A program made the translations under genes and the position numbers. The notes beneath the pieces are model-generated. The model was given only the letters and a program-made list of their open reading frames with translations, did not search any database and had not been told where the DNA came from. A stretch of DNA of 64,000 nucleotides from an uncultured virus (IMG/VR IMGVR_UViG_3300031134_000596) (Duplodnaviria > Heunggongvirae > Uroviricota > Caudoviricetes): the IMG/VR virus record IMGVR_UViG_3300031134_000596; one strand, 5' to 3'. Positions 1 through 64,000 of the stretch are shown one piece after another. Each line of letters opens with the position of its first letter. The stretch's first letter is position 1.

Positions 1-656
1 AGTTCACCTGCTGCTGTTCGTGCGAAGCTAAAATTCTTTCCAGCGTAGACATCTGTGAAGCGGGCATCAGTTGAAGCAACACCTGGTGTGTTTCGTGCGG
101 TGTTGGTTCCGTCACCAAGCTGTCCAGCATCGTTGTTACCCCAGGACCAAAGGCGTCCTTCTCCGTCCAAGGCAAGAGTGAAGTCTGCACCTGCAGCAAT
201 TTTATTGTAACGTAAAGCTGCTGTCACCTGAGTGGGGGTGTAAGTAGGATTGGTTGTACCGTTACCAGATTGCCCGATGTCGTTAGGACCCCAGGTAAAG
301 ATGTGGCCGCTTTCGCTGGTCGCAACACTGTGGTCGTAAGGAGAGTCAATGCTGGAGATTTTCTCAGGCAGTTCAACTTTGTTCCAACCAGAGATGTTTA
401 CAGTCTGACCTGCAGTAATACCCAGCTGACCTTGACTGTTCCAGCCTCGTGAGTAGACGGTGCCGTCGCTGGCGATGACAGTTGCGAAAGTCTCACCAGC
501 GGATACCTCTGCGGCTTTGATGAAGTTCTGCTCTTCAGAGGCTTGCACGTTGGTAAGGTTCTGCGAAAGTACTAAAGCAGCACCTGTTACGAAAATCGCA
601 CCGATGGTGAGAAGCTTCTTCCCAGTAGTGGCTAAAGGCTTTGTTGTGGCATCCAT
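1..656 (-). CDS. Secreted RCC1/BLIP-II repeat beta-propeller protein (runs off the window start)
   Basis: Manual translation from ATG at 656: MDATTKPLATTGKKLLTIGAIFVTGAALVL (signal/TM), then SAGETFATVIASDGTVYSRGWNSQGQLG and further WG.N..GQ.G repeats. Confidence 0.85.
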   Translation of the reverse strand, partial: MDATTKPLATTGKKLLTIGAIFVTGAALVLSQNLTNVQASEEQNFIKAAEVSAGETFATVIASDGTVYSRGWNSQGQLGITAGQTVNISGWNKVELPEKISSIDSPYDHSVATSESGHIFTWGPNDIGQSGNGTTNPTYTPTQVTAALRYNKIAAGADFTLALDGEGRLWSWGNNDAGQLGDGTNTARNTPGVASTDARFTDVYAGKNFSFARTAAGE

Positions 657-660
657 GTTG

Positions 661-1275
661 TTACACTTCACTTTCTGCGAAGAACGATTTCATTTCTTCT
701 ACGCCGTTATGGTCGTTTCGTTCTTCAATACGACGGGTTGCTCGTTGTCTGGCTTTGCCAATGTGTTTGATGGAGCGTTGGTCCTGCGATAAGCGTCCAT
801 GCAGACCAAAAATGTAGACCAGTCCAAGGGCAAAAGCTGCAGAGAGAAGCAAGATGAGACCCAAAGGTGAGCTGGCGATGCTGAATAGGAACCCTACAGC
901 GGGGACGCTGAACTGCTCTTTGTAAGTTACATCTCGGATTTTGTAAGGGAACTCATCAGGAAGAGCCCGCTGGTCACTTTTCAACGAAATGTTATAATAC
1001 TGCTCATCATCTGTGCTGATTTCAAGCACTCGTCCAATGAGGTTACGCTGGGACTCACCAACACCGATGGTAACAATGTCGCCAGCTTTGATTTCTTTCT
1101 CAGGGGTGAGCTTGGAAACGATCAACGACCCGTTGCGTACGTCAGGTGACATAGCACTGGTAGCAACAGGAGCAACACGCCATTCAGTAAATGAGTTCAC
1201 CCCTTGAATGCCTGCCGCTAAGACGCTAAAGACAGCAACTACACCCAGTAGAGCTGCAACTAATTTTCGTTTCAC
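661..1275 (-). CDS. SipW/S26 signal peptidase-like membrane protein, possibly catalytically degenerate
   Basis: N-terminal TM, VATSAMSP..NGSLIV (cf. SGSMxP), IKAGDIVT, C-terminal VPAVGF plus TM; the THRV His position reads IGRV. Confidence 0.6.
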   Translation of the reverse strand: MKRKLVAALLGVVAVFSVLAAGIQGVNSFTEWRVAPVATSAMSPDVRNGSLIVSKLTPEKEIKAGDIVTIGVGESQRNLIGRVLEISTDDEQYYNISLKSDQRALPDEFPYKIRDVTYKEQFSVPAVGFLFSIASSPLGLILLLSAAFALGLVYIFGLHGRLSQDQRSIKHIGKARQRATRRIEERNDHNGVEEMKSFFAESEV

Positions 1276-4448: not shown

Positions 4449-4524
4449 CTTTTTAGAACACCTCGTGATATGTTTAGTGGACCGAAGCAGGAGAGCTTCG
4501 GTCCACTAAACATTTGGAGAGAAA

Positions 4525-14719: not shown

Positions 14720-15484
14720 TTAGAAAAGCTTCAGGAAGTCCTGCTCCATGTAAGCTCGCGTGGCGTCCTTGGACACCCAACGGCTTCGAGTGACAGTCGT
14801 CGGAGCATCAGCAGGGCGACGCACACCTGCAGGAACAGCCTGGGCTGCATCCTGCTCGAACGTCTCCTTGAACGCCACACGACCGTTGAAGAAGCCCTCA
14901 GGAAGCTTCTCGTAAGGCGTACCCTCCAGAAGCCGCAGACGGTCCTTGGAGGAGACACTCATCAGGCTCTTGTGGGAGTGCAGCACGTTAGCTGCCATCG
15001 TCACAGCGTTCTTCTGAGCATCGAAACGACGCCAACGCACGTACTCATCCACCTCGTCCACATCAGCAAGCGTGTGAACACGAGCATCGAACACAGGAAT
15101 CTGACCGACTCCATCAAACTTAAGAGCCTGCATGAACAGAGCAGTCACAGTTGCAGCACCGATGGAAAGCATCTTGTCGACACGACCACCGAACCACATC
15201 TGGCTGTTTTCACCAGCAAGGTCTGAGAAGACGATGCTGATTTCATCCGACTGAGTGTAACCAGCGATGGCTCCAGGGATGGTCGCAGCCATCTTACGGG
15301 TCACTTCGTCCATGACGCCCATGAAGTTCAGGTCGTAAGGCTTCTCGAAACGCTTGGTGAACGTGGAGAAGTTCTTACCGTCAAAACGGATGACAGCGTA
15401 AGTCTTCTCAGGGAGGTAGCGGAAAGAGTCCTTCTCCAGACCCTTGAACTTCACTCCATCAGGGAGCATGTTGTTATCAGACAT
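14720..15484 (-). CDS. thg1: tRNA-His guanylyltransferase Thg1-like (3'-5' polymerase)
   Basis: VIRFDGKNFSTFT, YTQSDEISI, WFGGRVDK, PVFDAR, WRRFDAQKN. Confidence 0.92.
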   Translation of the reverse strand: MSDNNMLPDGVKFKGLEKDSFRYLPEKTYAVIRFDGKNFSTFTKRFEKPYDLNFMGVMDEVTRKMAATIPGAIAGYTQSDEISIVFSDLAGENSQMWFGGRVDKMLSIGAATVTALFMQALKFDGVGQIPVFDARVHTLADVDEVDEYVRWRRFDAQKNAVTMAANVLHSHKSLMSVSSKDRLRLLEGTPYEKLPEGFFNGRVAFKETFEQDAAQAVPAGVRRPADAPTTVTRSRWVSKDATRAYMEQDFLKLF

Positions 15485-15794
15485 TAGCCTTCTCTTCTGT
15501 GTTGCGTGCCATGAGCTGAAGCCATAGCAGGTCATAAGTTCCTGAATCGACAAGCATTCGCTCATCGTTGTTCAAATCGTACACGTAAAACGCTCCGATG
15601 TCCAGCTGCTTGTCTGCAGGGAAAGCGTCATACCATGCAGCAAACTCGTCAAGAGTGTCCCAGCCGTCCAGACCAGGGAACATGCAGCGACCGTTCTCGT
15701 CATTGTCCGTGACGTTTTCGCCGTGAATCTCTTCGTCAAGGTAAGAGTCCCAGCCGGCAGCATAAGCGTAGTAACGCTTCTCATCAGTAGTCAT
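15477..15794 (-). CDS. Hypothetical acidic protein
   Basis: ORF directly after a TTGACA-17-TAATGT promoter, overlapping the thg1 start. Confidence 0.65.
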   Translation of the reverse strand: MTTDEKRYYAYAAGWDSYLDEEIHGENVTDNDENGRCMFPGLDGWDTLDEFAAWYDAFPADKQLDIGAFYVYDLNNDERMLVDSGTYDLLWLQLMARNTEEKANV

Positions 15795-21378: not shown

Positions 21379-21924
21379 TCAGACCTTCAAAGGAAGGGCA
21401 TGAGCCAGCTCGATGGGGGACAGACTGATGAGTAGTTCACGGAATTCGGGGTACGGCAGGTGTGCATGCTCCATAATGAAAGCAATACGCTCTTCAGGCA
21501 GTTCGGGTGCGTAACGACCTGAAACCAGCATGTCCTGAAGGTTGAACAAAGCCCTCAGAGCGTGACGTTGCTTCCTGAAACCAGTCTGGGATGCGAACTT
21601 GGTGATGATTCGCTCGTACGCAGGAACAACTTCATAACCAGCCTGGTAAGAAGCCCGCAGGCTGCCCAGCAAGTCGACCAGAGGCTCAGCAGCAAACATG
21701 GCGTCAAGAGCCTGATGGGAACCAGCAGCTGCTCGCTCCATGAAGTGCGAAAGAGTCATCTGGGTAGTGTCGATGCCGTCCACGATGGTCTGACGGACCT
21801 GACGGGGAGCATCACGAGTTTCAATCATGAAAGGCTCAGTGTGGACTTCAAAATAGTCGTCGTCGGAAGCGTCTGTGGCGTAACCATACAGACGTGAACC
21901 AGCTTGCACTCGAAGCAACAACAT
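21379..21924 (-). CDS. DNA pol beta-superfamily nucleotidyltransferase
   Basis: GSRLYGYATDASDDD motif. Confidence 0.8.
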   Translation of the reverse strand: MLLLRVQAGSRLYGYATDASDDDYFEVHTEPFMIETRDAPRQVRQTIVDGIDTTQMTLSHFMERAAAGSHQALDAMFAAEPLVDLLGSLRASYQAGYEVVPAYERIITKFASQTGFRKQRHALRALFNLQDMLVSGRYAPELPEERIAFIMEHAHLPYPEFRELLISLSPIELAHALPLKV

Positions 21925-23289: not shown

Positions 23290-23616
23290 ATGAGTAGAAC
23301 TTGGCTAATGTTTGGTGCTAAGTCAGAGGCCGCTACCACGGAAAATGGAGCTGTACTGTACAAGCACATTTGGGAGAACCCTCGTGCGTTAGCTATGTCC
23401 GGAGTTCCTTCTGACAAAATTCTTCAGCTTGAACTTCAGGAGAACCCTGAAGGAGAGTACATGGGCTGGATTCCTGGGGATCGCCCAGAAAGCTTGAACA
23501 TGGTGCAGCTGAAAAAGATTTTTGCCATTCAGTTCCCTTATGGGGTCAAAGCAGCCATGGAAGCAGGACAGGGCGAAGCTGTTCCTTTGAGTATCGTAGA
23601 GAAGGTTCCAGTATGA
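23290..23616 (+). CDS. Hypothetical protein, tandem paralog
   Basis: ENGAVLY ... YMGWI ... FAIQFPYG. Confidence 0.7.
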   Translation: MSRTWLMFGAKSEAATTENGAVLYKHIWENPRALAMSGVPSDKILQLELQENPEGEYMGWIPGDRPESLNMVQLKKIFAIQFPYGVKAAMEAGQGEAVPLSIVEKVPV

Positions 23617-23930
23617 ACTGGGAGCTATTCGGTCGAGCTGATGTGAAAGAGAACGGTACTGTCGTTTACAGCCGATTCCATGAGAACCGAAACAGAATGC
23701 GGTTCTTGTCAGTCCCTGAAGAGGACATCAAAACGCTTGTTGTCACAGTGGATGAGAGCGGACCTTACCTGGGTTGGGTCCGAACAGACCGAACCATGAT
23801 TGAACTGATTCTTCCTGTTCACATTTTTGACATTCAGTTCCCTTATGGTCACAAGGCTTCAGAAGAAAAGGGTCTTGGTAAAGCTTACCGTGTTTCTATC
23901 ACGGAGAAAATTGAAGGAGATAACAAATGA
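23613..23930 (+). CDS. Hypothetical protein, tandem paralog
   Basis: ENGTVVY ... YLGWV ... FDIQFPYG. Confidence 0.7.
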   Translation: MNWELFGRADVKENGTVVYSRFHENRNRMRFLSVPEEDIKTLVVTVDESGPYLGWVRTDRTMIELILPVHIFDIQFPYGHKASEEKGLGKAYRVSITEKIEGDNK

Positions 23931-24874: not shown

Positions 24875-24924
24875 CTTAAACAGTAAAGGCAACCCACTAA
24901 CCTGGGTTGCCTTTACTGTTTAAG
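24875..24924. terminator. Bidirectional intrinsic terminator
   Basis: 22-bp inverted repeat between convergent genes. Confidence 0.8.
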
Positions 24925-25171
24925 CGTAAACGCCTTTGATCGACACCGTGTTCTGAATGTCGACATGCTTCATATGCTCCATCACATGCTGATCTGTTGA
25001 TTCGATGAAAACTTTACGGTAATGAGTGCGTCCAGTTTCTTCTTTCACTGACGGCATTACTACAGCATTGGTTTTTGTTTCATCTGAAGCAAGGCGAGTG
25101 ACCAAATTGGCAACACTGGTGTCCAGAAGGCGATGATCGGAGGAGCTAAGTACGAAAGTGAAAGTTCTCAT
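24920..25171 (-). CDS. Ribosomal protein uS10/NusE homolog lacking the ribosome-binding loop
   Basis: DHRLLD, MPSVKE, RTHYR..I and D.Q..VSI align by eye with S10 DHRLID, LPTRKE, RTHLRLVDI and DLAAGVDVQI. Confidence 0.7.
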   Translation of the reverse strand: MRTFTFVLSSSDHRLLDTSVANLVTRLASDETKTNAVVMPSVKEETGRTHYRKVFIESTDQHVMEHMKHVDIQNTVSIKGVYA

Positions 25172-25228
25172 ACCCAAAGGCTACCATGCATAGATGAAGT
25201 ACCAGTTTTATCTATGCATGGTAGCCTT

Positions 25229-26035
25229 TCAGTTCGTCATCAAGTCGGTAAAGCCGAACAAGTACAAATGCGTGAAAAAGTAAACACTGGAACCCAGAAC
25301 CAAAGCAGCTCCGCCGGCTTGGATGAGACTCCTTCGAACGTACCTTCTTCGGGAAGCTCTCTGTAGGTTTTTGAACCAGGCAAATCGAGCAGTCTGCTCT
25401 TGGAGTTCATCTTTGTAGGAATGAGACCAGAAATCACTGAGAACCATCTCCTCAACAGGAAGTTTAGAGCTCAAGTTTTCTTTGTTTCGGCTCTTCTCCT
25501 GGGAACGTATGAATTTCACTAACGTGCTGATTTCCAGCATCTCGACATCTGAATGAGCTTTAACTGTGAGAGATTTTACTCCTACGTACACAATTAGAGG
25601 AATTACTGAAGTGCCGTATGCAAGCTTTTTCTCAACACGATCTGCTTCGTATTTCGAGTTGCGGATGTAAGGTTGATTCTTTCCATCAACAAGCACTGTA
25701 CGGTTGGTTGACCAAATTCGTTTGCCTTGAAGGTTCTTAGTATTGATAGTGTAAACCACACCTGAAGGAGTAATGATTACATGGTCAATATCTGAACCTC
25801 GTACCCCAATAGGAACAGAGTGAAGAACGACGTAACCGTCTTTTTCCAGAGCCTTCAGAACTTTACCGACCTGAATTTCACCTTGCAAACCGATGTACCA
25901 GCTCCGAGTTTCGGGCGTGAGAGGTGACGCTCCGAAAGCACGAGCCAGCCAGTTTTGTGCAGGCAGCTCTGTTTGGAGTGAGTACAATTTATTCACGAGG
26001 CTGTACCCTGGCCGGTGTTCCAGAAGATTAACCAT
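25229..26035 (-). CDS. NERD-domain (PD-(D/E)xK-like) nuclease with C-terminal TM
   Basis: GLQGE..VG..L, VLHSV, SDIDHVII.PSG.VYTINTKN. Confidence 0.85.
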   Translation of the reverse strand: MVNLLEHRPGYSLVNKLYSLQTELPAQNWLARAFGASPLTPETRSWYIGLQGEIQVGKVLKALEKDGYVVLHSVPIGVRGSDIDHVIITPSGVVYTINTKNLQGKRIWSTNRTVLVDGKNQPYIRNSKYEADRVEKKLAYGTSVIPLIVYVGVKSLTVKAHSDVEMLEISTLVKFIRSQEKSRNKENLSSKLPVEEMVLSDFWSHSYKDELQEQTARFAWFKNLQRASRRRYVRRSLIQAGGAALVLGSSVYFFTHLYLFGFTDLMTN

Positions 26036-26067: not shown

Positions 26068-27318
26068 TCACCCTTCTGTCATAATTCGGTGAATGAAACG
26101 GTTTGCAATAGCTGGTTTGCGGCAGTACCACATGAACCCTGAAGCAGCGGTTTTTCTCCTATTCAGAGGCTTCCTGCTGTTGGTTCCGTAGTGGTATCCG
26201 TCGCAGTGAGGGCAAGCGTAAACTTCTTTTACCCCGTCTGCTGCAACATTAGTGAATTCTCGGATACCTCTGGCTGCTTCATCAGGAGAGCTGTAGTGGC
26301 GTTTACGACCACAAACCATATATTCGACCATCAGGTCGATTGAGACCAGTTCGGGCGGGAGGATGTACTCCAGAGGCTTTACAGTGACATTATTGAGGTA
26401 CTTCAACCCTGCAAGGTTGTATCGTGCAGGGTGAGAACTGGCAGAGGCCTGCACTGGCTTCGAAACCTGTACTTGACGCACTTGTTCGGTTGAAGAAACT
26501 TCTCGAACTGGTTCGAAGACGACCTTTTTCGGAGGGTTGACTTTCTTAACCGCCTGAGTTGTTGTTTTGGTTTTAGAACCAGGAGTGGAAAGTCCTTTAG
26601 CTTTCAAGACCACACCAAAAGCACCTGCAGTTCTTGTCCTTTTTTCTTTACGACGAGTAGATGTTCTTACGGAGATACTGCGGTTTTCAACAACAGCTTC
26701 TTGGCTCGTAGAATAACGGCGAAGCAGCGTGTTGTAGACACCATCCAACATTTCTTCAAGGTAGACGAAAACAAGTTCAGGAGTTGAAGGCTTCAGTTTC
26801 AGAAGTTCATCTTTATAGGATGCTTTAGAAGCAAAATGTTTAAACCGCTTGTCCTCTACCGAATGGAGGTCTTCATGAGTTCTACAGTAGCTCAACCGAG
26901 GTGTTGTGATGACGGCATTGTTCTCATAATTTGTGCAAGCTTCATCCTGTAAACTGGCGACAGCTGCTCTACTCTCTTCCAACCAGTGGGAGACAATGGT
27001 CCATTCAGGTCGAGCATGAATGTAAGCAAGGACTTCATCCGCCACATCTACTGTCTGAACTTCATCAAAGAACTGCAGAATTTTAGATTCAGGGAGAGTC
27101 TTCGAATGAGCAATCTCATCCCGAGCGGACTCCCAGGAAGAAAGGCTGATGATGTGATTCTGGTTACAACGAGAACAGGTCACAGCAACATGGTCTTTAA
27201 CGCTGAAAGTAGCATCCTGTTGATTGAGTTTCACATTTCGAGTACATGAAAGCTCGTAGAATGAATCAATGGCAGACTTGCGTTTAGTCTGACGCGGTTG
27301 ACCTTTTCGTTTTGCCAT
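26068..27318 (-). CDS. Multi zinc-finger protein (paralog of 35227-36774)
   Basis: CSRCNQNH; YCRTH; CGRKRHY ... YACPHCDGYHYG. Confidence 0.7.
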   Translation of the reverse strand: MAKRKGQPRQTKRKSAIDSFYELSCTRNVKLNQQDATFSVKDHVAVTCSRCNQNHIISLSSWESARDEIAHSKTLPESKILQFFDEVQTVDVADEVLAYIHARPEWTIVSHWLEESRAAVASLQDEACTNYENNAVITTPRLSYCRTHEDLHSVEDKRFKHFASKASYKDELLKLKPSTPELVFVYLEEMLDGVYNTLLRRYSTSQEAVVENRSISVRTSTRRKEKRTRTAGAFGVVLKAKGLSTPGSKTKTTTQAVKKVNPPKKVVFEPVREVSSTEQVRQVQVSKPVQASASSHPARYNLAGLKYLNNVTVKPLEYILPPELVSIDLMVEYMVCGRKRHYSSPDEAARGIREFTNVAADGVKEVYACPHCDGYHYGTNSRKPLNRRKTAASGFMWYCRKPAIANRFIHRIMTEG

Positions 27319-27417
27319 GACACTCTCCTTTGACTCTGTATTCTATCAAAGAATGAAGCCCTTTGCAACTGACTTCTTGTATGGTATTATTAGGTATCAA
27401 CTAATTAGGAATGCATC

Positions 27418-27813
27418 ATGTACACCTCTGAAATCACACGATATCCGCAGTCAGACAGACATAAGACGTTGAACGATCTTGTGAACGCTCTCCTTCAGGT
27501 GAACCCTGACAGTCCTCTTACTTTCCGATACTTTGGAACACCATCCCTTACGTTTGTCTCTTACCGAGGCTACTACCAGGACCTTGCAGTCACTTCAGGT
27601 GGAACTGATGTTGTCACAGTAAACGAATTCATCTTTGCATTGCACAAAGCAGTTGGAAAAACCTACATCGGATGGAAAGGTGGAGATTTCATAGCTGACT
27701 TCGATTCACCAATTTGGGTTGTCTACGATGCTTCAAATGTTGGAGAGTTCGTCACTGAAGTAACTGTTGAAAGTGATGGTTCAATCATCATTGAAAGCGA
27801 AAGCGATGACTGA
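27418..27813 (+). CDS. Phage-like hypothetical protein
   Basis: SYRGYYQDLA ... YIGWKGGDF; TTGCAA..TATTAT promoter. Confidence 0.7.
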   Translation: MYTSEITRYPQSDRHKTLNDLVNALLQVNPDSPLTFRYFGTPSLTFVSYRGYYQDLAVTSGGTDVVTVNEFIFALHKAVGKTYIGWKGGDFIADFDSPIWVVYDASNVGEFVTEVTVESDGSIIIESESDD

Positions 27814-28333
27814 ACAGAAGAAGCTTGTCCTTGTCGATTTTGATGGAGTCTTCAATGCTTTAGACACCATTCCTTCTTCCTACCCTTCAATGGTTCAGCA
27901 TGCAGATTTAAAGCATGTCCGTTACCGTCAGACAGAAACTGAAGGTGAGTTCGTTGACGAAGCTCTCATTTCACAAACAGCGGTAGAGGGCTTTGTATCC
28001 GCTACAGAAACAGCTGAAGTTATCTGGCTGACCACTTGGCTGGACCGTACTGAATGGTTCCCAAAAGCATTCGGATTCCCAGCTTTCCCTTACGGGGGTT
28101 CAGAAGAGCATGTCAGCACTACAACAGCTGCTGACTGGTGGAAGTTAGATTACCTTCAGAACAACCACCTGGATAGGGAAATCCTGTGGATTGATGACGA
28201 CTTGGCCACTGAACCTGAAGCATTAGCTTGGGTTGAGGCTCAGCAAGGGCGTGTAACTACTATGTCTCCTGACACCCGCACCGGGCTTACTGTGCAAAAT
28301 CTGAACACAATCGAAAGGTGGGTGAGCCAGTAA
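27806..28333 (+). CDS. HAD-superfamily protein (HAD_SAK type)
   Basis: LVDFDGVFN, WLTTW, WWK, LWIDDD, GLT. Confidence 0.85.
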   Translation: MTEQKKLVLVDFDGVFNALDTIPSSYPSMVQHADLKHVRYRQTETEGEFVDEALISQTAVEGFVSATETAEVIWLTTWLDRTEWFPKAFGFPAFPYGGSEEHVSTTTAADWWKLDYLQNNHLDREILWIDDDLATEPEALAWVEAQQGRVTTMSPDTRTGLTVQNLNTIERWVSQ

Positions 28334-29843: not shown

Positions 29844-29892
29844 AGAGAGGTGAGGCCCTGAATCTCAACTCGATTCAGGGCCTCACCTCTCT
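29844..29892. terminator. Intrinsic terminator
   Basis: 21-bp inverted repeat just after the 29896 stop. Confidence 0.75.
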
Positions 29893-30881: not shown

Positions 30882-31916
30882 CTACTTGGTCTCAGCGATA
30901 AGTCGTTCATCAACCATCTGGATAATAGGGAAGTTCATGTGGTCCCCTTTTTTGAACTTACCCCATCGCTGGTAGCTTTCATCGCTCTGTGAATAACCTC
31001 TACTGTATTGGCTGTTGAGGTCTTTCCTGTCTGAAGCGAACTCAAAACGCTGTGAACGGCGACTACCTGTGATACGAAACTTCGTGTTACGAGGAAGGAG
31101 TATCTCCTTCTCCAGGGATTGGATGTCTCCTCCTCTGGATTTTTCCTCCGGCTGAAGGGAAGCTCCTTGTTTTGAGAGTATCTCCATGACTACATAACCA
31201 TGGTTTTTGTTCCCACCGTTCCTGTCGTGCATGTGAGCCATGATGAATTCAGGGTCAGCTGTAGTTGACATGAACCCTTTCTCTTTGAACGCTTCTCCTG
31301 TTTTGAAGTACCGTTCGATGTATTCGTTAGGTGACACTCCGGCTGGCACTCTAAAGAAACGGTACAGCTTGCGAGGACCTTCAGGCTCCTTCGCGGAAGC
31401 TAAAGCTTCGTCTAAGTTCTTGATATCCCGGGGAACATTCTCCGCTAAGTCTTCTCGATAGAAAGGATTCTCTCGAATCAGCTCTGGAAGTCCTTTCTTT
31501 CTCAGAACAGTGTTCACTAATTCGAATAAAGTCATTGTGTAGCGTCTTACGCTGTTTGACTGGTCTCGGGTGAGGCTATTAGCCCACTCTTCTTGCTCTT
31601 CAAAAAGCTTAGCTGTGTGGGCAAGACGTTCTTCAGCATCAAGACCAGTTATAGCTTCACGTGATTTCTTACTCAGCAAATCCAGCAGTTCTTGAGGTAC
31701 AGACTTCTGATTCGGCTTCTCCTGGAAAGGTAACGTCTCAGGAAGGTGCTCTCTCACCAAGTCCTTGTGGGCTTCTTTCCAACTCTGGACAGCTTTTTCG
31801 GCAAGACGTTCTTTGTTGTACTCATTGCGATGCTTGTAACGTGCTTTTCTTCTGACATTAGCTATGGCGTCTGCGTATTCACAGCGTTGTCCGCCATCTG
31901 CTTTGGCTTTGCACAT
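30882..31916 (-). CDS. ADP-ribosyltransferase (R-S-E clade, ExE type; VIP2/Alt-like) with N-terminal Cys motif
   Basis: RRYT...F..VN..LR, KLYR, GFMSTT, LEKEILLPRNTKFRI; N-terminal MCKAKADGGQRC. Confidence 0.85.
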   Translation of the reverse strand: MCKAKADGGQRCEYADAIANVRRKARYKHRNEYNKERLAEKAVQSWKEAHKDLVREHLPETLPFQEKPNQKSVPQELLDLLSKKSREAITGLDAEERLAHTAKLFEEQEEWANSLTRDQSNSVRRYTMTLFELVNTVLRKKGLPELIRENPFYREDLAENVPRDIKNLDEALASAKEPEGPRKLYRFFRVPAGVSPNEYIERYFKTGEAFKEKGFMSTTADPEFIMAHMHDRNGGNKNHGYVVMEILSKQGASLQPEEKSRGGDIQSLEKEILLPRNTKFRITGSRRSQRFEFASDRKDLNSQYSRGYSQSDESYQRWGKFKKGDHMNFPIIQMVDERLIAETK

Positions 31917-32144
31917 AGGATTCCTTTTTCTCCGTCTTTTGACATACTCTTTATCGGTCAATTCCTTATGTTTGCAGGGAATTTAGAGGGCTCGATTATG
32001 AAACAATACTGATTATATAGGAACTTTATCTTGACTCCAATCACGCCCATACTTTGCTATAAGTGCATATATGAGTGGTTTTAGATACCCTGGTGCGATC
32101 AGATCAAGACTGGTAGATTGAAGCTCTATGAAGGAGAGAATGCA

Positions 32145-34015: not shown

Positions 34016-34169
34016 TGCTCACTCCATCAAAGTATAATGGTTACAGTCTACACCATTTGTTGAGGTAAAGACACCCTTGAGAACTTAGGTAGAGCTTTTT
34101 GTAGTTGCGGGAATAATGATTCCAGTTGGTTAGTTGAACTCTATGCAAACGCATAGAAAGAAGGATGAA

Positions 34170-35261
34170 ATGCAATTTGGAATTTTTAGTGTCGGAGACA
34201 TCACTACTGACCCAACTACAGGGAAAACCCCTAACGAGCACGAAAAGCTCATGAACACCCTTACCATTGCCCAGCATGCAGAGGAAGTAGGTCTGGATGT
34301 ATTCGCCACAGGAGAACATCACAACCCACCATTCGTGGCATCCCCAATTCCTATGTTGAGCTACCTGGCAGCCAGGACGAAAACCATCACCCTCTCCACA
34401 GCCACAACACTCATCACAACAAACGATCCTGTTTTGCTGGCTGAAGACTACGCAATGCTGCAACACCTGTCAGAAGGTCGCATGGATTTGGTCCTTGGGC
34501 GCGGTAACACAGGTCCTGTTTATCCTTGGTTCGGTAAAGACATCCGCCAGGGGGTAAACCTTGCAATCGAAAACTATGCCTTATTGCACAAGCTGTGGAG
34601 AGAAACCGAAGTCGACTGGAAAGGACACTTCCGTACACCTCTGAATAGCTTTACTTCCACCCCGCGACCTCTTGATGGTGTTGCACCATTCGTGTGGCAT
34701 GGAAGCATTCGTTCACCTGAAATTGCCGAACAAGCTGCTTTTTACGGGGATGGATTCTTCCACAACCATATCTTCTGGAACAAAGAACACACTCAACAGA
34801 TGGTCCAACTGTACAGAGAACGTTTCGAACACTATGGTCATGGAACGGCAGAAGAAGCAATTGTAGGTATCGGAGCTCAAGTATTCATGGCTGAAAAGTC
34901 ACAGGATGCAGTGAACCAGTTCCGTCCTTACTTCAATGAAGCTCCAGTCTACGGTCATGGTCCTTCTTTGGAAGACTTCACAGAACAAACACCATTGACT
35001 GTGGGTTCCCCTGAACAGGTCATTGAGAAGAATCTGAAGTTCTTAGACTACACAGGTCCTGTTCAACGTCAGCTCTGGCTTATCGACCATGCTGGTCTGC
35101 CTTTAAAAACTGTTCTTGACCAGATTGACATGCTGGCAGAAAAAGTTGTCCCTGTTCTGAGGAAAGAGATGGAATCACGTAAACCAGCAACAGCTCCTGC
35201 AAATCCACCAACTCATCAGGAGCGTGTCAAGCAGGCTGAAGACCAGTTGTTCTCTGAGTGA
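34170..35261 (+). CDS. LLM-class flavin-dependent oxidoreductase (CE1758-like)
   Basis: MQFGIFSVGD, FATGEHHNPPF, TTNDPV..AEDYA, GRGN, WHGSIRS. Confidence 0.92.
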   Translation: MQFGIFSVGDITTDPTTGKTPNEHEKLMNTLTIAQHAEEVGLDVFATGEHHNPPFVASPIPMLSYLAARTKTITLSTATTLITTNDPVLLAEDYAMLQHLSEGRMDLVLGRGNTGPVYPWFGKDIRQGVNLAIENYALLHKLWRETEVDWKGHFRTPLNSFTSTPRPLDGVAPFVWHGSIRSPEIAEQAAFYGDGFFHNHIFWNKEHTQQMVQLYRERFEHYGHGTAEEAIVGIGAQVFMAEKSQDAVNQFRPYFNEAPVYGHGPSLEDFTEQTPLTVGSPEQVIEKNLKFLDYTGPVQRQLWLIDHAGLPLKTVLDQIDMLAEKVVPVLRKEMESRKPATAPANPPTHQERVKQAEDQLFSE

Positions 35262-36787: not shown

Positions 36788-36979
36788 TTAGTTAGCTACC
36801 ACTCGGGCGATGCGCTCGGCATCAAGCGGGAGCTTCTGGATTCCTAGAAGAATAGTGTAGTTACCGTTCTCCTCTGAAAGAAGACCCGAGATTGCTCGAC
36901 CGTTCTTCATCTTCACGATGACCTGGTTGTTGATGTTGTTCTGGAGCGACTGTGCGACGCTGTTCTCGTTGTTAATCAT
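36788..36979 (-). CDS. Small Sm/LSm(Hfq)-like protein
   Basis: Helix then VIVKMKNGRAISGLL (Sm1-like), ending IARV. Confidence 0.5.
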   Translation of the reverse strand: MINNENSVAQSLQNNINNQVIVKMKNGRAISGLLSEENGNYTILLGIQKLPLDAERIARVVAN

Positions 36980-37317: not shown

Positions 37318-38895
37318 ATGCTTAAGCTTCACTCTGTCCTAAAATCTTCCCGTGCCGCCATTGATCTGGCTTCCATCATGGTTGGTGTCATCATCATCGG
37401 CCTCATCGGTGGTGTCATCGCGGCTACCGTTTTTGCTGTCATTCCATGGTCTCAAGACAAAGCAGCGAAACAACAGCTGGAAGCTATTGCTACGGCCGAA
37501 AATGCCCAGTATGGGAAATCCTCCGAAGGTAACAGCAAGCCTTTCTATGGTGACTCTGCGACTTTAGCTGCAGGTGGTTGGTTGCAGCAAGGCGAAAACT
37601 ACTGTGTAGTCACTCCAGATGAAGATAAGCAATCCTACAAAGCAGCTGTCAAATCAGCCTCTGGAAAAGTGTTTGTTTCTACCAACAAAGCCCCTAACCC
37701 TGTCGAAGCAGTGACAGGCGAAACTACTTGCATTGGTGTTGGTCCTGGAACTGGCACCACTAATCCTGCACCAGTGCCGGCTCCAACAACTGCTGTTAGC
37801 TTCCTATCTTCCAGTATGGGAAGCGCTAATCACATGGTCGTAAACAAGAACAATGCGTTGTATTCTTGGGGAACTAACACAGCAGGTCAGCTGGGGGATG
37901 GTACTTTGGTTTCCACTACTCTCCCAGTCAAAAGCTTGGACGGTAAATTCACTCAAATTGCTTTGAGTAAAGACTGGACAGTTGCTTTGCAGGATGATAA
38001 CACTTTATGGGCTTGGGGTAACAACGGTAATGGTTGGTTGAATGCAGGTTCTGTTGGAAAAGTTGTCACTCCCACAAAAGTAACTATTGCTGGTACTCCT
38101 CTTGAAGGAAAAAAGATAAAACAAATTGCAGCTACTCCTAGTTTTTATTACGTACTCACAAGCAATAATGAACTTTACAAATCGACTATTCGCTTCTCCA
38201 GCAAGGTTAGTTTTACAGGAACGGCTTTAGTGAGTACCAACATCACAAAACTTGCTACTGATTCAGATTCTGATGCCTATTTTGTCATTTCATCTGAAGG
38301 AAAACTGTACGCAGGTGGTGAAGGTGGAAACTATTTGCAAGCTGATGGTAGCGGTGATATACACACCGCACCTCTCCACGAAATTGGTCCAGGAACTCAA
38401 CTAGCTGGAAAAACTGTCACGGATATAGCTGTTGCTGGCAATACTGCCCGTGCGCTGACTTCAGATGGTCGTCTCTATGGATGGGGTTACAATAATTTCA
38501 GTGAGATTGGTTTTGGTAGTAGCTATTCCGCGTTAAAGCCGCTGGAAACTCCTTTAACTGGTACGCCTTTAGAAGGTAAAACTATTACCAACATTGCAGC
38601 TGGTTCGAACCATACCTTAGTCGTCACAAGTGAAGGTAAAGTCTATTCAGCTGGTTCCAATGCATTAGGTCAAAGAGGCATTGGAACCGCCACTTCCATC
38701 AATGCTTACATGGCTGTAGCTACTGCCGGAACTCCGATGGATAACCAGAAAATTGTAGCAATTACTGCTGGGAAAAACGTCTCTTACGCGTTGGATTCAA
38801 ACGGTAAATTGTACGGTTGGGGCTCTGGAAGTCAATTAGGTAGTGGTCCTATAGGTATGCAGAAAGCACCTATCGAAATAGCTCTTCCTGAGTAG
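37318..38895 (+). CDS. Pilin-like N-terminus fused to RCC1-repeat beta-propeller
   Basis: AAIDLASIMVGVIIIGLIGGVIAATVFAVIPWSQDKAAKQQL then LYSWG.N..GQLG repeats. Confidence 0.85.
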   Translation: MLKLHSVLKSSRAAIDLASIMVGVIIIGLIGGVIAATVFAVIPWSQDKAAKQQLEAIATAENAQYGKSSEGNSKPFYGDSATLAAGGWLQQGENYCVVTPDEDKQSYKAAVKSASGKVFVSTNKAPNPVEAVTGETTCIGVGPGTGTTNPAPVPAPTTAVSFLSSSMGSANHMVVNKNNALYSWGTNTAGQLGDGTLVSTTLPVKSLDGKFTQIALSKDWTVALQDDNTLWAWGNNGNGWLNAGSVGKVVTPTKVTIAGTPLEGKKIKQIAATPSFYYVLTSNNELYKSTIRFSSKVSFTGTALVSTNITKLATDSDSDAYFVISSEGKLYAGGEGGNYLQADGSGDIHTAPLHEIGPGTQLAGKTVTDIAVAGNTARALTSDGRLYGWGYNNFSEIGFGSSYSALKPLETPLTGTPLEGKTITNIAAGSNHTLVVTSEGKVYSAGSNALGQRGIGTATSINAYMAVATAGTPMDNQKIVAITAGKNVSYALDSNGKLYGWGSGSQLGSGPIGMQKAPIEIALPE

Positions 38896-49831: not shown

Positions 49832-49884
49832 GGTTAAATAGTTGTACCCCTGAAATCCACTTTCAGGGGTACAACTATTTAACC
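49832..49884. terminator. Bidirectional intrinsic terminator
   Basis: 24-bp inverted repeat between convergent genes. Confidence 0.8.
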
Positions 49885-57549: not shown

Positions 57550-57772
57550 AAAGAAGACCCCTGAGCTGCTTGAGAGAGGAGAGAGAGATTAGCAGCTCAG
57601 GGGTCTTCTTTGAGGAAGGGTTATACCAGGAGGTGTCTCGACCGGCACATTTTCACTCGACCTTTTTAGGAGAGAGAGAAGTTAGGCTTCGTGAACCTTC
57701 CTATCAGTAGTAAACACTATGTAATGAAAAAGCATTCCGCTTTCTAACTTCGTAATGTCTCTGTGCTGACAT
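57550..57772 (-). ncRNA. Candidate sRNA (possibly dual-function with a 22-aa leaderless ORF) carrying anti-SD CU tracts
   Basis: TTGACT(57806)-17-TAATGT promoter, no long ORF, ends in a 21-bp terminator hairpin with a UCUCUCUCUCCUCUCUC loop. Confidence 0.55.
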
Positions 57773-63584: not shown

Positions 63585-64000
63585 ATGACGAAACTTTTCT
63601 TAGACTTTGACGGGGTGGTGAACTTCGAAGGATCACGCTCTGCGTATCGTAAAAACAGAGACACTCTTGGTTACCTGCAGCAGGATGTGGTTCATAGTCG
63701 TCTGGGAATCTTTCGTATCAACTACTCGGCGGAACTTGTCCGTAAATTGAACTCTGCCCACACTGCTCATGGTTTTGAATGGCTGTGGCTTACCACTTGG
63801 GTGAATGAAGCAAAGACACTTCTGGACCCTCAGTTGAGTTCCCATTCAGATGGTTCCGTGGATTGGGACCCTCACAGCCGTCTCGGAGTTGACTACCAAG
63901 ACACTCGTGCTTCCCGCAAATATGAAGCACTTAAGGAGTCTTATGACGGAGAACCTTTCGTGTGGGTTGATGATGAAGCAACAGTTAAGTTCGATGCTGC
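63585..64000 (+). CDS. HAD-superfamily protein (HAD_SAK type), runs off the window end
   Basis: Manual translation MTKLFLDFDGVVN ... WLWLTTW ... FVWVDDE. Confidence 0.85.
   Translation, partial: MTKLFLDFDGVVNFEGSRSAYRKNRDTLGYLQQDVVHSRLGIFRINYSAELVRKLNSAHTAHGFEWLWLTTWVNEAKTLLDPQLSSHSDGSVDWDPHSRLGVDYQDTRASRKYEALKESYDGEPFVWVDDEATVKFDA

What the first reader, a model, noticed from the sequence alone, without database searches (positions are those of the whole stretch)
24920..25171. Natural loop-less uS10/NusE homolog on a mobile element
Seen: an 83-aa ORF with L.S.DHRLLD.SV..LV ... MPSVKEE-TG-RTHYRKVFI ... HVDIQNTVSI. Established: E. coli S10 reads LKAFDHRLIDQATAEIV ... LPTRKER-[FTVLISPHVNKDARDQYEI]-RTHLRLVDI ... 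LDLAAGVDVQI, and an engineered S10 lacking that loop cannot act in the ribosome but still binds NusB and supports antitermination. Here the same loop is replaced by about 2 residues, and the gene lies outside any ribosomal protein operon. Inference: a transcription-only NusE mimic that promotes antitermination or decoys NusB/NusG to alter transcription-translation coupling.
Basis: partly seen in the sequence, partly recalled or inferred. Interest (0 to 1): 0.82.

Follow-up and report, generated by a model that had tools for sequence, protein, structure and literature searches.

The report
Loop-less S10/NusE homolog on giant phage
A huge phage-like element from plant-surface bacteria carries a small, conserved copy of ribosomal protein S10 that lacks the loop anchoring S10 in the ribosome, so it probably acts on transcription rather than in protein synthesis.

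Summary
Window 24920-25171 (minus strand) encodes an 83-aa protein that is a true but distant uS10/NusE homolog. A profile of its 10-member family hits only uS10 chains in the PDB, best E 2.6e-7. hhalign to E. coli S10 gives 90%, E 1.6e-6. The AlphaFold model (pLDDT 86.5) best matches the engineered loop-deleted NusE (TM 0.82-0.84). All relatives are 82-91 aa and lack about 17 residues of the ribosome-insertion hairpin. Synonymous changes outnumber replacements.

The family keeps residues that papers place at the NusB/BoxA interface: R72 in 10 of 10, H15 in 8 of 10. It has lost basic rRNA/dsRNA contacts (R9, K11, R45: 0 of 10) and one of two NusG-pocket residues.

The setting is phage-like, probably with an actinobacterial host, and close relatives lie on contigs of 776-805 kb.

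No binding was tested, because the complex predictor was unavailable. No BoxA enrichment was found. Best reading: a ribosome-independent NusE surrogate that pairs with host NusB. Whether it helps antitermination or blocks it is open. This is a new variant of a known kind.

The parts
24920..25171 (-). 83-aa loop-less uS10/NusE homolog (P0001)
   Evidence: The family profile hits only uS10 in the PDB, best E 2.6e-7. hhalign to E. coli S10 gives 90%, E 1.6e-6. The AF2 model has pLDDT 86.5, and Foldseek's top hits are loop-deleted NusE chains at TM 0.82-0.84. Synonymous versus replacement codon differences to close relatives are 11:2, 17:4 and 13:6.
25176..25229 (.). Long hairpin filling the whole gap between the upstream NERD gene's stop codon and the S10-like start codon
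   Evidence: Inverted repeat I3 has 23-nt arms, 96% complementary. The RNA fold on the minus strand is -37.9 kcal/mol, z -8.8. The stop codon of the upstream gene (25229-25231) touches its 5' base, and the ATG at 25171 lies 4 nt after its 3' end. The scan flags it as terminator-like on the + strand. Only three U follow it on the minus strand.
24875..24924 (.). Hairpin between the convergent genes, overlapping the S10-like stop codon; likely a bidirectional terminator or RNA end-protecting stem
   Evidence: Inverted repeat I2 has 22-nt arms, 100% complementary. The RNA fold is -38.8 kcal/mol, z -8.5. One relative's contig (run X9) has a base inserted in each arm, after 24877 (A) and after 24918 (T), which keeps the pairing (table 4).
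25229..26035 (-). Upstream co-directional gene: 268-aa NERD (nuclease-related) domain protein with a hydrophobic C-terminus
   Evidence: Pfam PF08378 NERD, E 4.3e-14; ORF.
26068..27318 (-). First gene of the same co-directional run: 416-aa protein with CxxC pairs and no family match
   Evidence: ORF. No Pfam match at E<=0.1 and no PHROG match at 1e-5.
27340..27368 (-). Promoter-like site upstream of the three-gene run (consensus match only)
   Evidence: TTGCAA-17-TAGAAT with a TG extension, 9 of 12 matches. No promoter-like site on the minus strand was reported between 25172 and 26035.

Best explanation
The gene encodes a small, folded, ribosome-independent paralog of ribosomal protein uS10 (NusE). 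It is carried by a very large phage-like element whose host is probably an actinobacterium living on plants.

Shown: it has the S10 fold without the long beta-hairpin that threads into 16S rRNA. It has also lost the basic residues that contact rRNA/dsRNA. It keeps the helix-1 D-H-R-x-L-D motif and the buried arginine (E. coli R72) that published structures place at the NusB and BoxA-U8 interface. It evolves under purifying selection.

Inferred: during infection it takes the place of host S10 beside host NusB, probably on BoxA-type RNA. That would re-programme Nus-dependent transcription elongation and termination independently of the ribosomal S10 pool.

Two outcomes are possible and cannot be separated here:
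- It supplies NusE activity for read-through.
- It forms dead-end NusB complexes that shut down host rRNA antitermination.

The divergence of the NusG-facing and dsRNA-facing surfaces leans slightly towards a non-canonical or blocking complex.
For: Homology and fold:
- The family profile against the PDB gives 70 hits; all 60 shown are uS10, best E 2.6e-7.
- hhalign gives 90%, E 1.6e-6.
- The AF2 model has pLDDT 86.5.
- Foldseek's lowest-rmsd matches are the engineered loop-deleted NusE chains 3d3b_J, 2kvq_E, 3r2c_J, 3d3c_J and 5lm7_E, at rmsd 1.9-2.2 A and TMq 0.79-0.82.
- The ESM Atlas structural neighbour is a uS10 cluster, TM 0.82.

Loop loss is a family trait. All 9 relatives from an exhaustive phmmer scan of 1.84 billion representatives are 82-91 aa. 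Three more short ones of 66-87 aa turned up.

Selection: synonymous versus replacement codon differences are 11:2, 17:4 and 13:6.

Interface pattern (mapped):
- The R72 equivalent is R in 10 of 10. [quoted passage not shown]
- H15 is H in 8 of 10. R16 is R or K in 8 of 10. PMC3177189 passages say H15 bonds NusB E81 and R16 stacks on BoxA U8.
- D14, I18(L) and D19 are conserved in 10 of 10.
- P43 is P in 7 of 10. PMC13753749 section 6 describes NusB aromatics stacking on S10 P41/P43.
- The rRNA/dsRNA contacts named in PMC3177189 are lost: R9 0 of 10 basic, K11 0 of 10, R45 0 of 10.

Charge: P0001 has pI 6.97, against 9.68 for E. coli S10.

Precedent: the engineered loop-deleted NusE binds NusB and keeps transcriptional but not translational activity (PMC2800207, passages).

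Context:
- No ribosomal or Nus gene among 115 ORFs.
- Jumbo-phage-type genes: a Thg1-like gene with 162 phage records, and thymidine kinase, an Alt-like ADP-ribosyltransferase and an M23 endolysin.
- A DUF3307 gene matches 131 phage records, 130 of them actinophages.
Against: - No binding evidence of any kind: the complex predictor was not available.
- The conserved residues (D14, D19, R68, R72, V96) are also the most conserved in S10 generally. They may be kept for the fold rather than for NusB.
- M88, one of the two residues named for the NusG-KOW pocket (PMC8116511 passage), is polar in 10 of 10 members. P41 is kept in only 3 of 10.
- BoxA-like words are not enriched in the window: TGYTCTTTRA 1 found against 1.2 expected; GYTCTTTR 19 against 13.7 +/- 3.6. 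The consensus was recalled, not taken from a call.
- The host is inferred only from two genes of actinobacterial or actinophage affinity. In the 5 actinobacterial S10 sequences read, position 16 is E, not R, so E. coli and Aquifex interface details may not transfer.
- The rest of the roughly 0.8 Mb element could not be read. A phage-encoded partner or a phage RNA polymerase cannot be excluded.
Confidence: 0.45

Rival explanations
1. An S10-fold scaffold re-used for a different partner. The protein descends from S10 but now binds something unrelated to Nus factors, for example a phage-encoded RNA polymerase or another phage or host protein. The conserved residues would serve the fold or a new interface.
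For: - Identity to S10 is only about 20-25%.
- The basic RNA-binding character is lost: pI 6.97 against 9.68.
- The NusG-pocket residue M88 is not kept, 0 of 10 hydrophobic.
- No BoxA enrichment.
- Most of the element is unread.
Against: The residues that stay invariant are just those that published structures put at the NusB/BoxA interface, such as R72 in 10 of 10, the D-H-R-x-L-D motif, and P43 in 7 of 10 (PMC3177189, PMC13753749). No alternative partner is suggested by the neighbouring genes.
Confidence: 0.25
2. A NusG-KOW or Rho-directed decoy. It binds the C-terminal domain of host NusG as S10 does. That would block NusG-Rho or NusG-ribosome contacts, giving anti-termination or uncoupling without NusB.
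For: S10 and Rho compete for the same NusG KOW surface (PMC7819879 passages; PMC13753749 abstract). The V84 equivalent is hydrophobic in 10 of 10 members. Helix 2 and strand 4 are present in the model.
Against: The M88 equivalent is polar in 10 of 10. The D97 equivalent varies (S, S, Q, F, N, N, E, S, L, I); its importance is recalled from memory, and a search for it found no paper. This rival does not explain why the NusB-side residues are the most conserved.
Confidence: 0.1
3. A ribosome-directed protein. It occupies the S10 site on the 30S head or on assembly intermediates, giving altered or inactive ribosomes. This would resemble other phage-encoded ribosomal proteins that are thought to replace host copies.
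For: Phages do encode ribosomal proteins that enter ribosomes: bS21 and bL12 (PMC6375957, abstract and passages). JGI labels some family members 'ribosomal protein S10'.
Against: - The 16S-threading hairpin is missing in all members.
- The rRNA-contacting basic residues are gone: R9, K11 and R45 are basic in 0 of 10.
- The engineered loop deletion already lacks translational activity (PMC2800207).
- uS10 is absent from the main text of PMC6375957, and S10 is not among the ribosomal proteins listed for huge phages in the passages read of PMC7162821 and PMC11748809. Their supplementary tables were not read.
Confidence: 0.1
4. A decaying remnant of a captured rpsJ gene with no function.
For: It is short, it falls below Pfam's cut-off, and the family is rare: about 13 clusters in 5.8 billion proteins.
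Against: - Purifying selection: 11:2, 17:4 and 13:6 synonymous to replacement codon differences.
- The frame is intact in all members despite 26-40% identity between them.
- The fold is predicted with confidence.
- The gene is present in related elements from 4 runs of 4 studies that were laid.
Confidence: 0.03

Closest known systems
Engineered NusE(S10)-delta-loop of E. coli (PDB 3D3B, 3D3C, 3IMQ, 2KVQ), Aquifex aeolicus (3R2C, 3R2D) and the 82-residue Thermotoga NusE chain (2MEW)
   Same: The same fold without the ribosome-insertion hairpin. These are the best sequence hits for the single protein and the lowest-rmsd structural hits, 1.9-2.2 A with TMq 0.76-0.82. The size is similar: 83 aa against 80-87 aa. 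The residues H15, R16, D19, P43 and R72 are kept.
   Different: It is natural, not engineered. It shares only about 20% identity. The deletion is about 17 residues rather than 22, and the turn is E-T-G rather than a single Ser. It has also lost the basic beta-1 and R45 RNA contacts and the M88 pocket residue, and it is near-neutral in charge. Binding to NusB is shown for the engineered proteins and untested here.
Canonical bacterial ribosomal protein uS10 / NusE (Pfam PF00338)
   Same: Homologous by profile, with the same beta-alpha-beta-beta-alpha-beta core.
   Different: It lacks the loop, lies outside the S10 operon, is not basic, and scores below the Pfam gathering cut-off. In 401 Actinomycetota genomes the family profile found only weak matches of at most 26.2 bits. 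The 5 that were translated are canonical S10 with the loop, and no loop-less copy was seen.
Virus-encoded ribosomal proteins (bS21, bL12, bL9, bS6, uS9, uS15, bL31, bL33 and others; Mizuno et al. 2019, PMC6375957; huge-phage lists in PMC7162821 and PMC11748809)
   Same: A homolog of a ribosomal protein carried by a phage-like genome.
   Different: Those proteins are proposed, and for bS21 and bL12 shown, to enter ribosomes. This one lacks what S10 needs to do so. uS10 does not occur in the main text of PMC6375957, and S10 is not among the ribosomal proteins listed in the passages read of the other two papers. Supplements were not read.
Phage factors that hijack the Nus machinery (lambda N, HK022 Nun, Xp10 p7, P4 Psu) and specialised paralogs of elongation factors (RfaH, LoaP and other NusG paralogs)
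   Same: If the best explanation is right, the aim is the same: phage control of termination through host elongation factors. The logic also matches RfaH-type paralogs, where a duplicated general factor becomes dedicated to a subset of transcripts.
   Different: Those phage factors are unrelated in sequence to Nus proteins. I know of no phage-encoded NusE copy, and the searches listed no paper whose title or abstract describes one. This row rests on recalled knowledge plus abstracts (PMC6624301, PMC7819879).
Loop-shortened S10-like domain fused to NusB in freshwater Opitutales
   Same: A second natural case of an S10 copy without the ribosome loop, there covalently tied to NusB. If real, it is a 'Rosetta stone' hint that loop loss goes with NusB partnership.
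   Different: Those are bacterial chromosomal fusions; this is a stand-alone gene on a phage-like element. The exhaustive search found no fused or NusB-bearing relative of P0001: 0 of 10 hits. The notes are unchecked AI notes and were not tested here.

Membership tests
Ribosomal_S10 (PF00338) / uS10 superfamily | Sequence match to the family profile above the curated cut-off | tested here: not met
   P0001 scores 15.3 bits, E 0.025, against a cut-off of 21.2. Seven of 10 family members match at E<=1, best 0.025.
Ribosomal_S10 (PF00338) / uS10 superfamily | Homology detectable by profile methods | tested here: met
   The A1 profile against the PDB gives 70 sequences at E<=1; all 60 shown are uS10/NusE/S20e, best E 2.6e-7. 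hhalign to E. coli rpsJ gives 90%, E 1.6e-6.
Ribosomal_S10 (PF00338) / uS10 superfamily | S10 globular fold (beta-alpha-beta-beta-alpha-beta) | tested here: met
Functional ribosomal protein uS10 | Extended beta2-beta3 hairpin (about 22 residues) that inserts into the 16S rRNA head | tested here: not met
   About 17 residues are absent in all 10 members. The model shows a tight turn at residues 45-46.
Functional ribosomal protein uS10 | Basic residues contacting rRNA (E. coli R9, K11, R45, K46; PMC3177189) | tested here: not met
   Basic residues are found in 0 of 10 at R9, 0 of 10 at K11, 0 of 10 at R45 and 7 of 10 at K46. pI is 6.97 against 9.68.
Functional ribosomal protein uS10 | Gene at the head of the S10 ribosomal-protein operon | tested here: not met
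   The neighbours are a NERD protein and unknowns. No ribosomal protein was found among 115 ORFs, and the window has no tRNA.
NusE (transcription role of S10) | NusB-interface residues (H15, D19, P41/P43, R72) and the BoxA-U8-stacking R16 | tested here: met
   R72 in 10 of 10; D19 in 10 of 10; H15 in 8 of 10; R16 as R or K in 8 of 10; P43 in 7 of 10; P41 in 3 of 10. The roles come from PMC3177189 and PMC13753749. This is sequence conservation only.
NusE (transcription role of S10) | Hydrophobic pocket for NusG KOW (V84, M88; PMC8116511) | tested here: inconclusive
   The V84 position is hydrophobic in 10 of 10; the M88 position is polar in 10 of 10.
NusE (transcription role of S10) | Physical binding to NusB and support of BoxA-dependent antitermination | not testable with these tools
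No wet-lab data exist. An actinobacterial NusB alignment (A3) was prepared but could not be used.

The most novel reading that the evidence does not exclude
A giant actinophage-like element of about 0.8 Mb encodes its own dedicated Nus factor, which would be the first virus-encoded NusE. Freed from the ribosome, it would team up with host NusB to build termination-resistant transcription complexes. These would read through the many strong hairpins that punctuate the element's genome. The gene itself sits directly behind one such hairpin, so its expression would be self-reinforcing.
Probability: 0.18. Interest if true: 0.85.

Novelty: new variant of a known kind. Interest (0 to 1): 0.68.

Why it matters
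S10 has two jobs, one in the ribosome and one in transcription antitermination. They have so far been separated only by protein engineering, through the delta-loop construct used for all NusB:NusE structures. A natural, conserved, stand-alone loop-less S10 shows that evolution made the same cut.

If it binds NusB, it would be the first Nus-factor homolog known from a phage-like element. It would also be a new route for host takeover, or for keeping Nus-dependent transcription running when host ribosomal-protein synthesis stops.

It gives transcription biologists a ready-made soluble NusE variant with an informative substitution pattern: the NusB side is kept, while the rRNA side and part of the NusG side are changed.

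It also adds uS10 to the list of ribosomal-protein homologs seen on virus-like genomes. The twist is that this one cannot be a ribosome component.

Tried and rejected
- **Whole-genome context:** no genome is held for the window, and the 788,683-bp relative contig is not held. The rest of the element (capsid, terminase, RNA polymerase, Nus-like partners) could not be examined.
- **Complex prediction:** No verdict on binding.
- **Related loci in IMG/VR:** none found with P0001, P0008, P0010 or P0005. The alignment A1 was too variable for that tool.
- **Other collections:** no match in GenBank phages by tblastn at E<=1. No near-identical DNA in phages or plasmids. No relative in 185,579 species genomes by peptide patterns.
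- **PHROGs:** only a chance-level hit for P0001, E 0.16.
- **ESM Atlas by features:** no usable hit.
- **BoxA-like motif scan:** at chance level.
- **Expression:** no RNA holder is listed among the 20 runs. Run X20 is only guessed to be RNA and holds a roughly 93%-alike relative as contigs. Nothing can be said about transcription.
- **Neighbouring genes:** no informative family at E<=0.1.
- **P0011:** this 309-aa hit of the exhaustive search is a repeat protein matching only residues 38-61. It was left out of the family alignment as unrelated.
- **Papers not reached:** Luo et al. 2008 could not be read; its content is cited only through PMC2800207 and PMC3177189. The importance of S10 M88/D97 substitutions for NusG binding is recalled, and a search for it found no paper.
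- **Earlier findings by place and by sequence:** nothing.
Full report
**1. The observation**

The window has an ORF on the minus strand from 25171 (ATG) to 24920 (TAA), 83 codons. A TTG two codons upstream is possible, but every relative begins at the MRTF/MKTF methionine.

On its own the protein resembles S10 only weakly:
- Pfam Ribosomal_S10 gives E 0.025 and 15.3 bits, against a cut-off of 21.2.
- phmmer against all PDB sequences gives three hits at E<=10. The top two are the engineered loop-deleted E. coli NusE chains (3d3c_J, E 0.11; 2kvq_E, E 0.18). The third is unrelated.
- PHROGs gives nothing meaningful.

**2. A family, and significant homology**

A word-indexed search found one 95%-identical relative. 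An exhaustive phmmer scan of 1.84 billion cluster representatives found 10 proteins at E<=0.001. Nine are 82-91 aa (P0002-P0010; 26-39% identical to P0001 apart from P0002 at 95%). The tenth, P0011, is a 309-aa acidic repeat protein that matches only residues 38-61, and I left it out. A later profile search added three short members, P0144-P0146, of 85, 87 and 66 aa.

The 10-sequence alignment A1 was used as a profile:
- Against PDB sequences it matched 70 distinct sequences at E<=1. All 60 shown are uS10, NusE or eukaryotic S20 (uS10), best E 2.6e-7. HMMER opened an insertion of about 18 residues in the targets exactly at the beta2-beta3 hairpin.
- hhalign of A1 against E. coli rpsJ, read from NC_000913, gave probability 90% and E 1.6e-6 over 78 columns. 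E. coli residues of roughly 48-59 and 61-65 were unmatched.
- Seven of 10 members touch PF00338 at E<=1.

So the homology is real, the loop is absent, and the absence is a property of the whole family rather than of one sequence.

**3. Structure**

AlphaFold2 with A1 gave mean pLDDT 86.5 and pTM 0.72, with strands 2-10, 32-44, 47-58 and 77-82 and helices 13-27 and 63-68.

- **Foldseek against the PDB:** 200 of the 500 counted matches have E<=0.001, and every row listed is an entry holding uS10. The matches with the lowest rmsd are the engineered loop-deleted proteins 3d3b_J, 2kvq_E, 3r2c_J, 3d3c_J, 3r2d_J, 5lm7_E and 2mew (rmsd 1.9-2.2 A, TMq 0.76-0.82). 3w1y_C ranks first, with TMq 0.84 and rmsd 2.9 A.
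- **ESM Atlas:** the structural neighbour is a uS10 cluster, TM 0.82.

**4. A real gene**

Two close relatives were fetched from metagenome contigs: L001 at 98% and L002 at 95% protein identity. L001 aligns with the window at 96.2% over 20,265 bases.

Codon differences in the ORF are mostly silent, counted as synonymous against replacement: 11:2 (window against L001), 17:4 (window against L002) and 13:6 (L001 against L002). Contigs about 90-99% alike cover the gene in all four runs laid, which come from four studies.

**5. What is kept and what is lost**

I mapped P0001 onto E. coli numbering and read the family columns.

Kept:
- D14, I18 (as L), D19, R72 and V96 in 10 of 10.
- R68 in 9 of 10.
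- H15 in 8 of 10.
- R16 as R or K in 8 of 10.
- P43 in 7 of 10.

Published roles of these residues:
- PMC3177189 (passages and section 15 read): H15 hydrogen-bonds NusB E81. R16 stacks on BoxA U8. [quoted passage not shown] All 10 NusE interface residues are conserved between Aquifex and E. coli, with cross-species complexes forming in vivo.
- PMC13753749 (sections 6 and 11 read): NusB aromatic residues stack on S10 P41 and P43, and the NusB:S10 pair exists in B. subtilis too.

Lost:
- The dsRNA/rRNA contacts named in PMC3177189. R9, K11 and R45 are basic in 0 of 10. K46 is basic in 7 of 10.
- The alternating arginines of strand 1.
- P0001 has pI 6.97, against 9.68 for E. coli S10. Family pI values range from 4.85 to 9.68.

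For the NusG-KOW pocket (V84 and M88, PMC8116511 passage), the V84 position stays hydrophobic in 10 of 10, but the M88 position is polar in 10 of 10.

The pattern is therefore: NusB/BoxA side kept, ribosome side gone, NusG side half changed.

Caveats:
- The kept residues are also the most conserved in S10 generally and may serve the fold.
- Luo et al. 2008, the primary structure paper, could not be read.
- In the 5 actinobacterial S10 sequences I read, position 16 is E rather than R. So the family does not look like a recent copy of an actinobacterial rpsJ, and interface details may differ in the likely host.

**6. Setting**

The window has no tRNA, is 46.6% G+C, and holds about 113 mostly short ORFs on alternating strands.

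Of 115 ORFs scanned against Pfam, none is a ribosomal protein or a Nus factor. Recognisable genes are thymidine kinase, a Thg1-like tRNA-His guanylyltransferase, R2K ATP-grasp, PcfJ-like, NERD, an Alt-like ADP-ribosyltransferase, RCC1-repeat proteins, an M23 peptidase of endolysin type, LytR-CpsA-Psr, AIM24 and a luciferase-like monooxygenase.

- The Thg1-like protein matches 162 phage records, many of them jumbo phages.
- The DUF3307 protein matches 131 phage records at up to 61.5% identity. Of these, 130 are phages of Streptomyces, Mycobacterium, Arthrobacter, Microbacterium, Gordonia or Curtobacterium.
- The monooxygenase is 65-74% identical to homologs in 80 listed genomes. By their titles, 79 are Actinomycetota; the assignment of genera to the phylum is from my own knowledge.
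- Runs holding the region are labelled phyllosphere, plant or straw metagenomes.

The element is therefore phage-like, with a probable actinobacterial host on plant material. No structural phage gene lies in the window, and four family members found nothing in IMG/VR, so viral nature is likely but not proven.

Identical or near-identical copies of the protein sit on contigs of 776,559, 782,330 and 788,683 bases. A distant branch (P0008 cluster) sits on contigs of 412,594, 637,428 and 805,269 bases.

The family profile found only weak matches in 401 sampled Actinomycetota genomes: 164 of 401 at E<=0.01, at most 26.2 bits. This tally includes 13 unpublished genomes. The 5 matches I translated all carry the loop and are canonical S10. 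So no loop-less copy was found in those genomes.

**7. Local anatomy**

The gene is the last of three co-directional genes: a 416-aa unknown, a 268-aa NERD protein, and the S10-like gene. A promoter-like site lies upstream of the first, at 27368-27340.

The 57-nt gap between the NERD stop codon and the S10-like ATG consists almost wholly of one hairpin at 25176-25229 (-37.9 kcal/mol, z -8.8). A second hairpin at 24875-24924 (-38.8 kcal/mol, z -8.5) overlaps the stop codon and separates the gene from a convergent one.

The window holds 34 such inverted repeats. One relative has matching one-base insertions in both arms of the downstream hairpin. There is no room for a promoter and no Shine-Dalgarno sequence between the upstream hairpin and the ATG.

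I infer that expression needs transcription through that hairpin. This is an inference, not a result.

**8. Mechanism**

[quoted passage not shown] NusE is regarded as the active partner, with NusB as its loader (PMC2800207 introduction).

Given the conservation pattern, the most likely reading (about 45%) is that this protein takes S10's place beside host NusB, probably on BoxA-type RNA, independently of the ribosomal S10 pool.

Two outcomes are possible:
- **Productive:** it supplies NusE activity when host ribosomal-protein synthesis fails, helping read-through on the element's or the host's transcripts.
- **Non-productive:** its NusB complexes cannot engage NusG or dsRNA and so poison host rRNA antitermination.

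The changed M88 position and the lost basic residues lean towards a non-canonical complex.

Against the whole idea: there is no binding test, BoxA-like words are not enriched (with a consensus recalled from memory), and most of the element is unread.

Rivals, with my estimates:
- A re-used S10 scaffold with another partner, 25%.
- A NusG/Rho decoy, 10%.
- A ribosome-directed protein, 10%.
- A relic, 3%.

**9. Comparison and novelty**

The closest known object is the laboratory NusE-delta-loop. The closest natural relatives are ordinary uS10 proteins.

Phage-encoded ribosomal proteins are known. However, uS10 does not occur in the main text of Mizuno et al. 2019 (PMC6375957). S10 is also not among the ribosomal proteins listed for huge phages in the passages I read of PMC7162821 and PMC11748809. 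Supplementary tables were not read and might list it.

Searches for NusE-like, S10-like or S10-paralog terms and for phage plus S10/NusE terms listed no paper whose title or abstract describes a natural loop-less S10. I judged these from the listings and did not open the S10-like hits. JGI's automatic annotation already calls some members 'ribosomal protein S10'.

Earlier unchecked notes of this scan describe loop-shortened S10 domains fused to NusB in Opitutales. I could not test them. If true, they make the NusB link more plausible and show that this is not the only natural loop-less S10. No NusB-fused relative of P0001 appeared among the 10 hits of the exhaustive search.

I file it as a new variant of a known kind. 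It is an S10/NusE homolog by descent and fold. It is not a functional ribosomal uS10, because three defining features were tested and not met. Its membership in 'NusE' in the functional sense is untested.

**10. Verdict**

Interest is 0.68: a specialist in transcription elongation would find a natural, phage-borne delta-loop NusE surprising and directly testable, but its function rests on conservation patterns alone.

Noticed in passing
window 14927-35180 aligned to L001 (contig of 788,683 bases); cluster members: Near-identical copies of this region lie on metagenome contigs of 776,559, 782,330 and 788,683 bases, and a distant family branch on contigs up to 805,269 bases. If these are phage genomes, they exceed the 735 kb and 717 kb given as the largest in PMC7162821 (abstract) and PMC11748809 (discussion passage). 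Their viral nature could not be checked because the contigs are not held.
   Followed up: partly
window 34134-35261 (+): A luciferase-like (LLM) flavin monooxygenase is 65-74% identical to homologs in 80 listed genomes, 79 of them Actinomycetota by title. The window itself is only 46.6% G+C. This looks like a host-derived gene and is the main host clue.
   Followed up: partly
window-wide, e.g. 49832-49884, 57550-57611, 29844-29892, 4470-4513: There are 34 inverted repeats of 13-26 nt, many of them perfect and many flanked by A-runs and T-runs, mostly between genes. They look like bidirectional terminators or RNA-stability stems. One relative shows compensating one-base insertions in both arms of the hairpin at 24875-24924.
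   Followed up: partly
window 14720-15565 (-), 21379-21924 (-), 27767-28333 (+), 63585-63998 (+): An RNA-repair flavour: a Thg1-like tRNA-His guanylyltransferase (E 7.7e-26), a nucleotidyltransferase-like PHROG hit, and two HAD_SAK_2 ('Swiss Army Knife RNA repair') domain proteins, one strong at E 5.4e-9 and one weak at E 0.014.
   Followed up: no
window 30882-31961 (-): A 359-aa protein has an ADP-ribosyltransferase domain (PF03496, E 2.4e-11) and PHROG hits to Alt-like RNA-polymerase ADP-ribosyltransferases. It is another candidate host-takeover gene that may act on transcription.
   Followed up: no
window 23290-23616 and 23613-23930 (+): Two adjacent small genes of 108 and 105 aa look like tandem paralogs. 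Both share an ...IQFPYG.KA... stretch in the translations, and neither has a family match.
   Followed up: no
window 36788-36979 (-): A 63-aa ORF has a sub-threshold LSM (Sm/Hfq-like) domain match: E 2.8e-4, 20.9 bits against a cut-off of 23.4.
   Followed up: no
L089, L090, L092, L093, L095 (Actinomycetota rpsJ): In the 5 canonical actinobacterial S10 sequences translated, the helix-1 motif reads D-H-E, not D-H-R. The arginine that stacks on BoxA U8 in Aquifex and E. coli is a glutamate there, whereas the phage-borne family mostly keeps R or K.
   Followed up: partly
window 3-671 (-) and 37318-38895 (+): There are two RCC1-repeat proteins, one of them cut by the window's start. PHROGs labels such proteins 'regulator of chromosome condensation'.
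   Followed up: no
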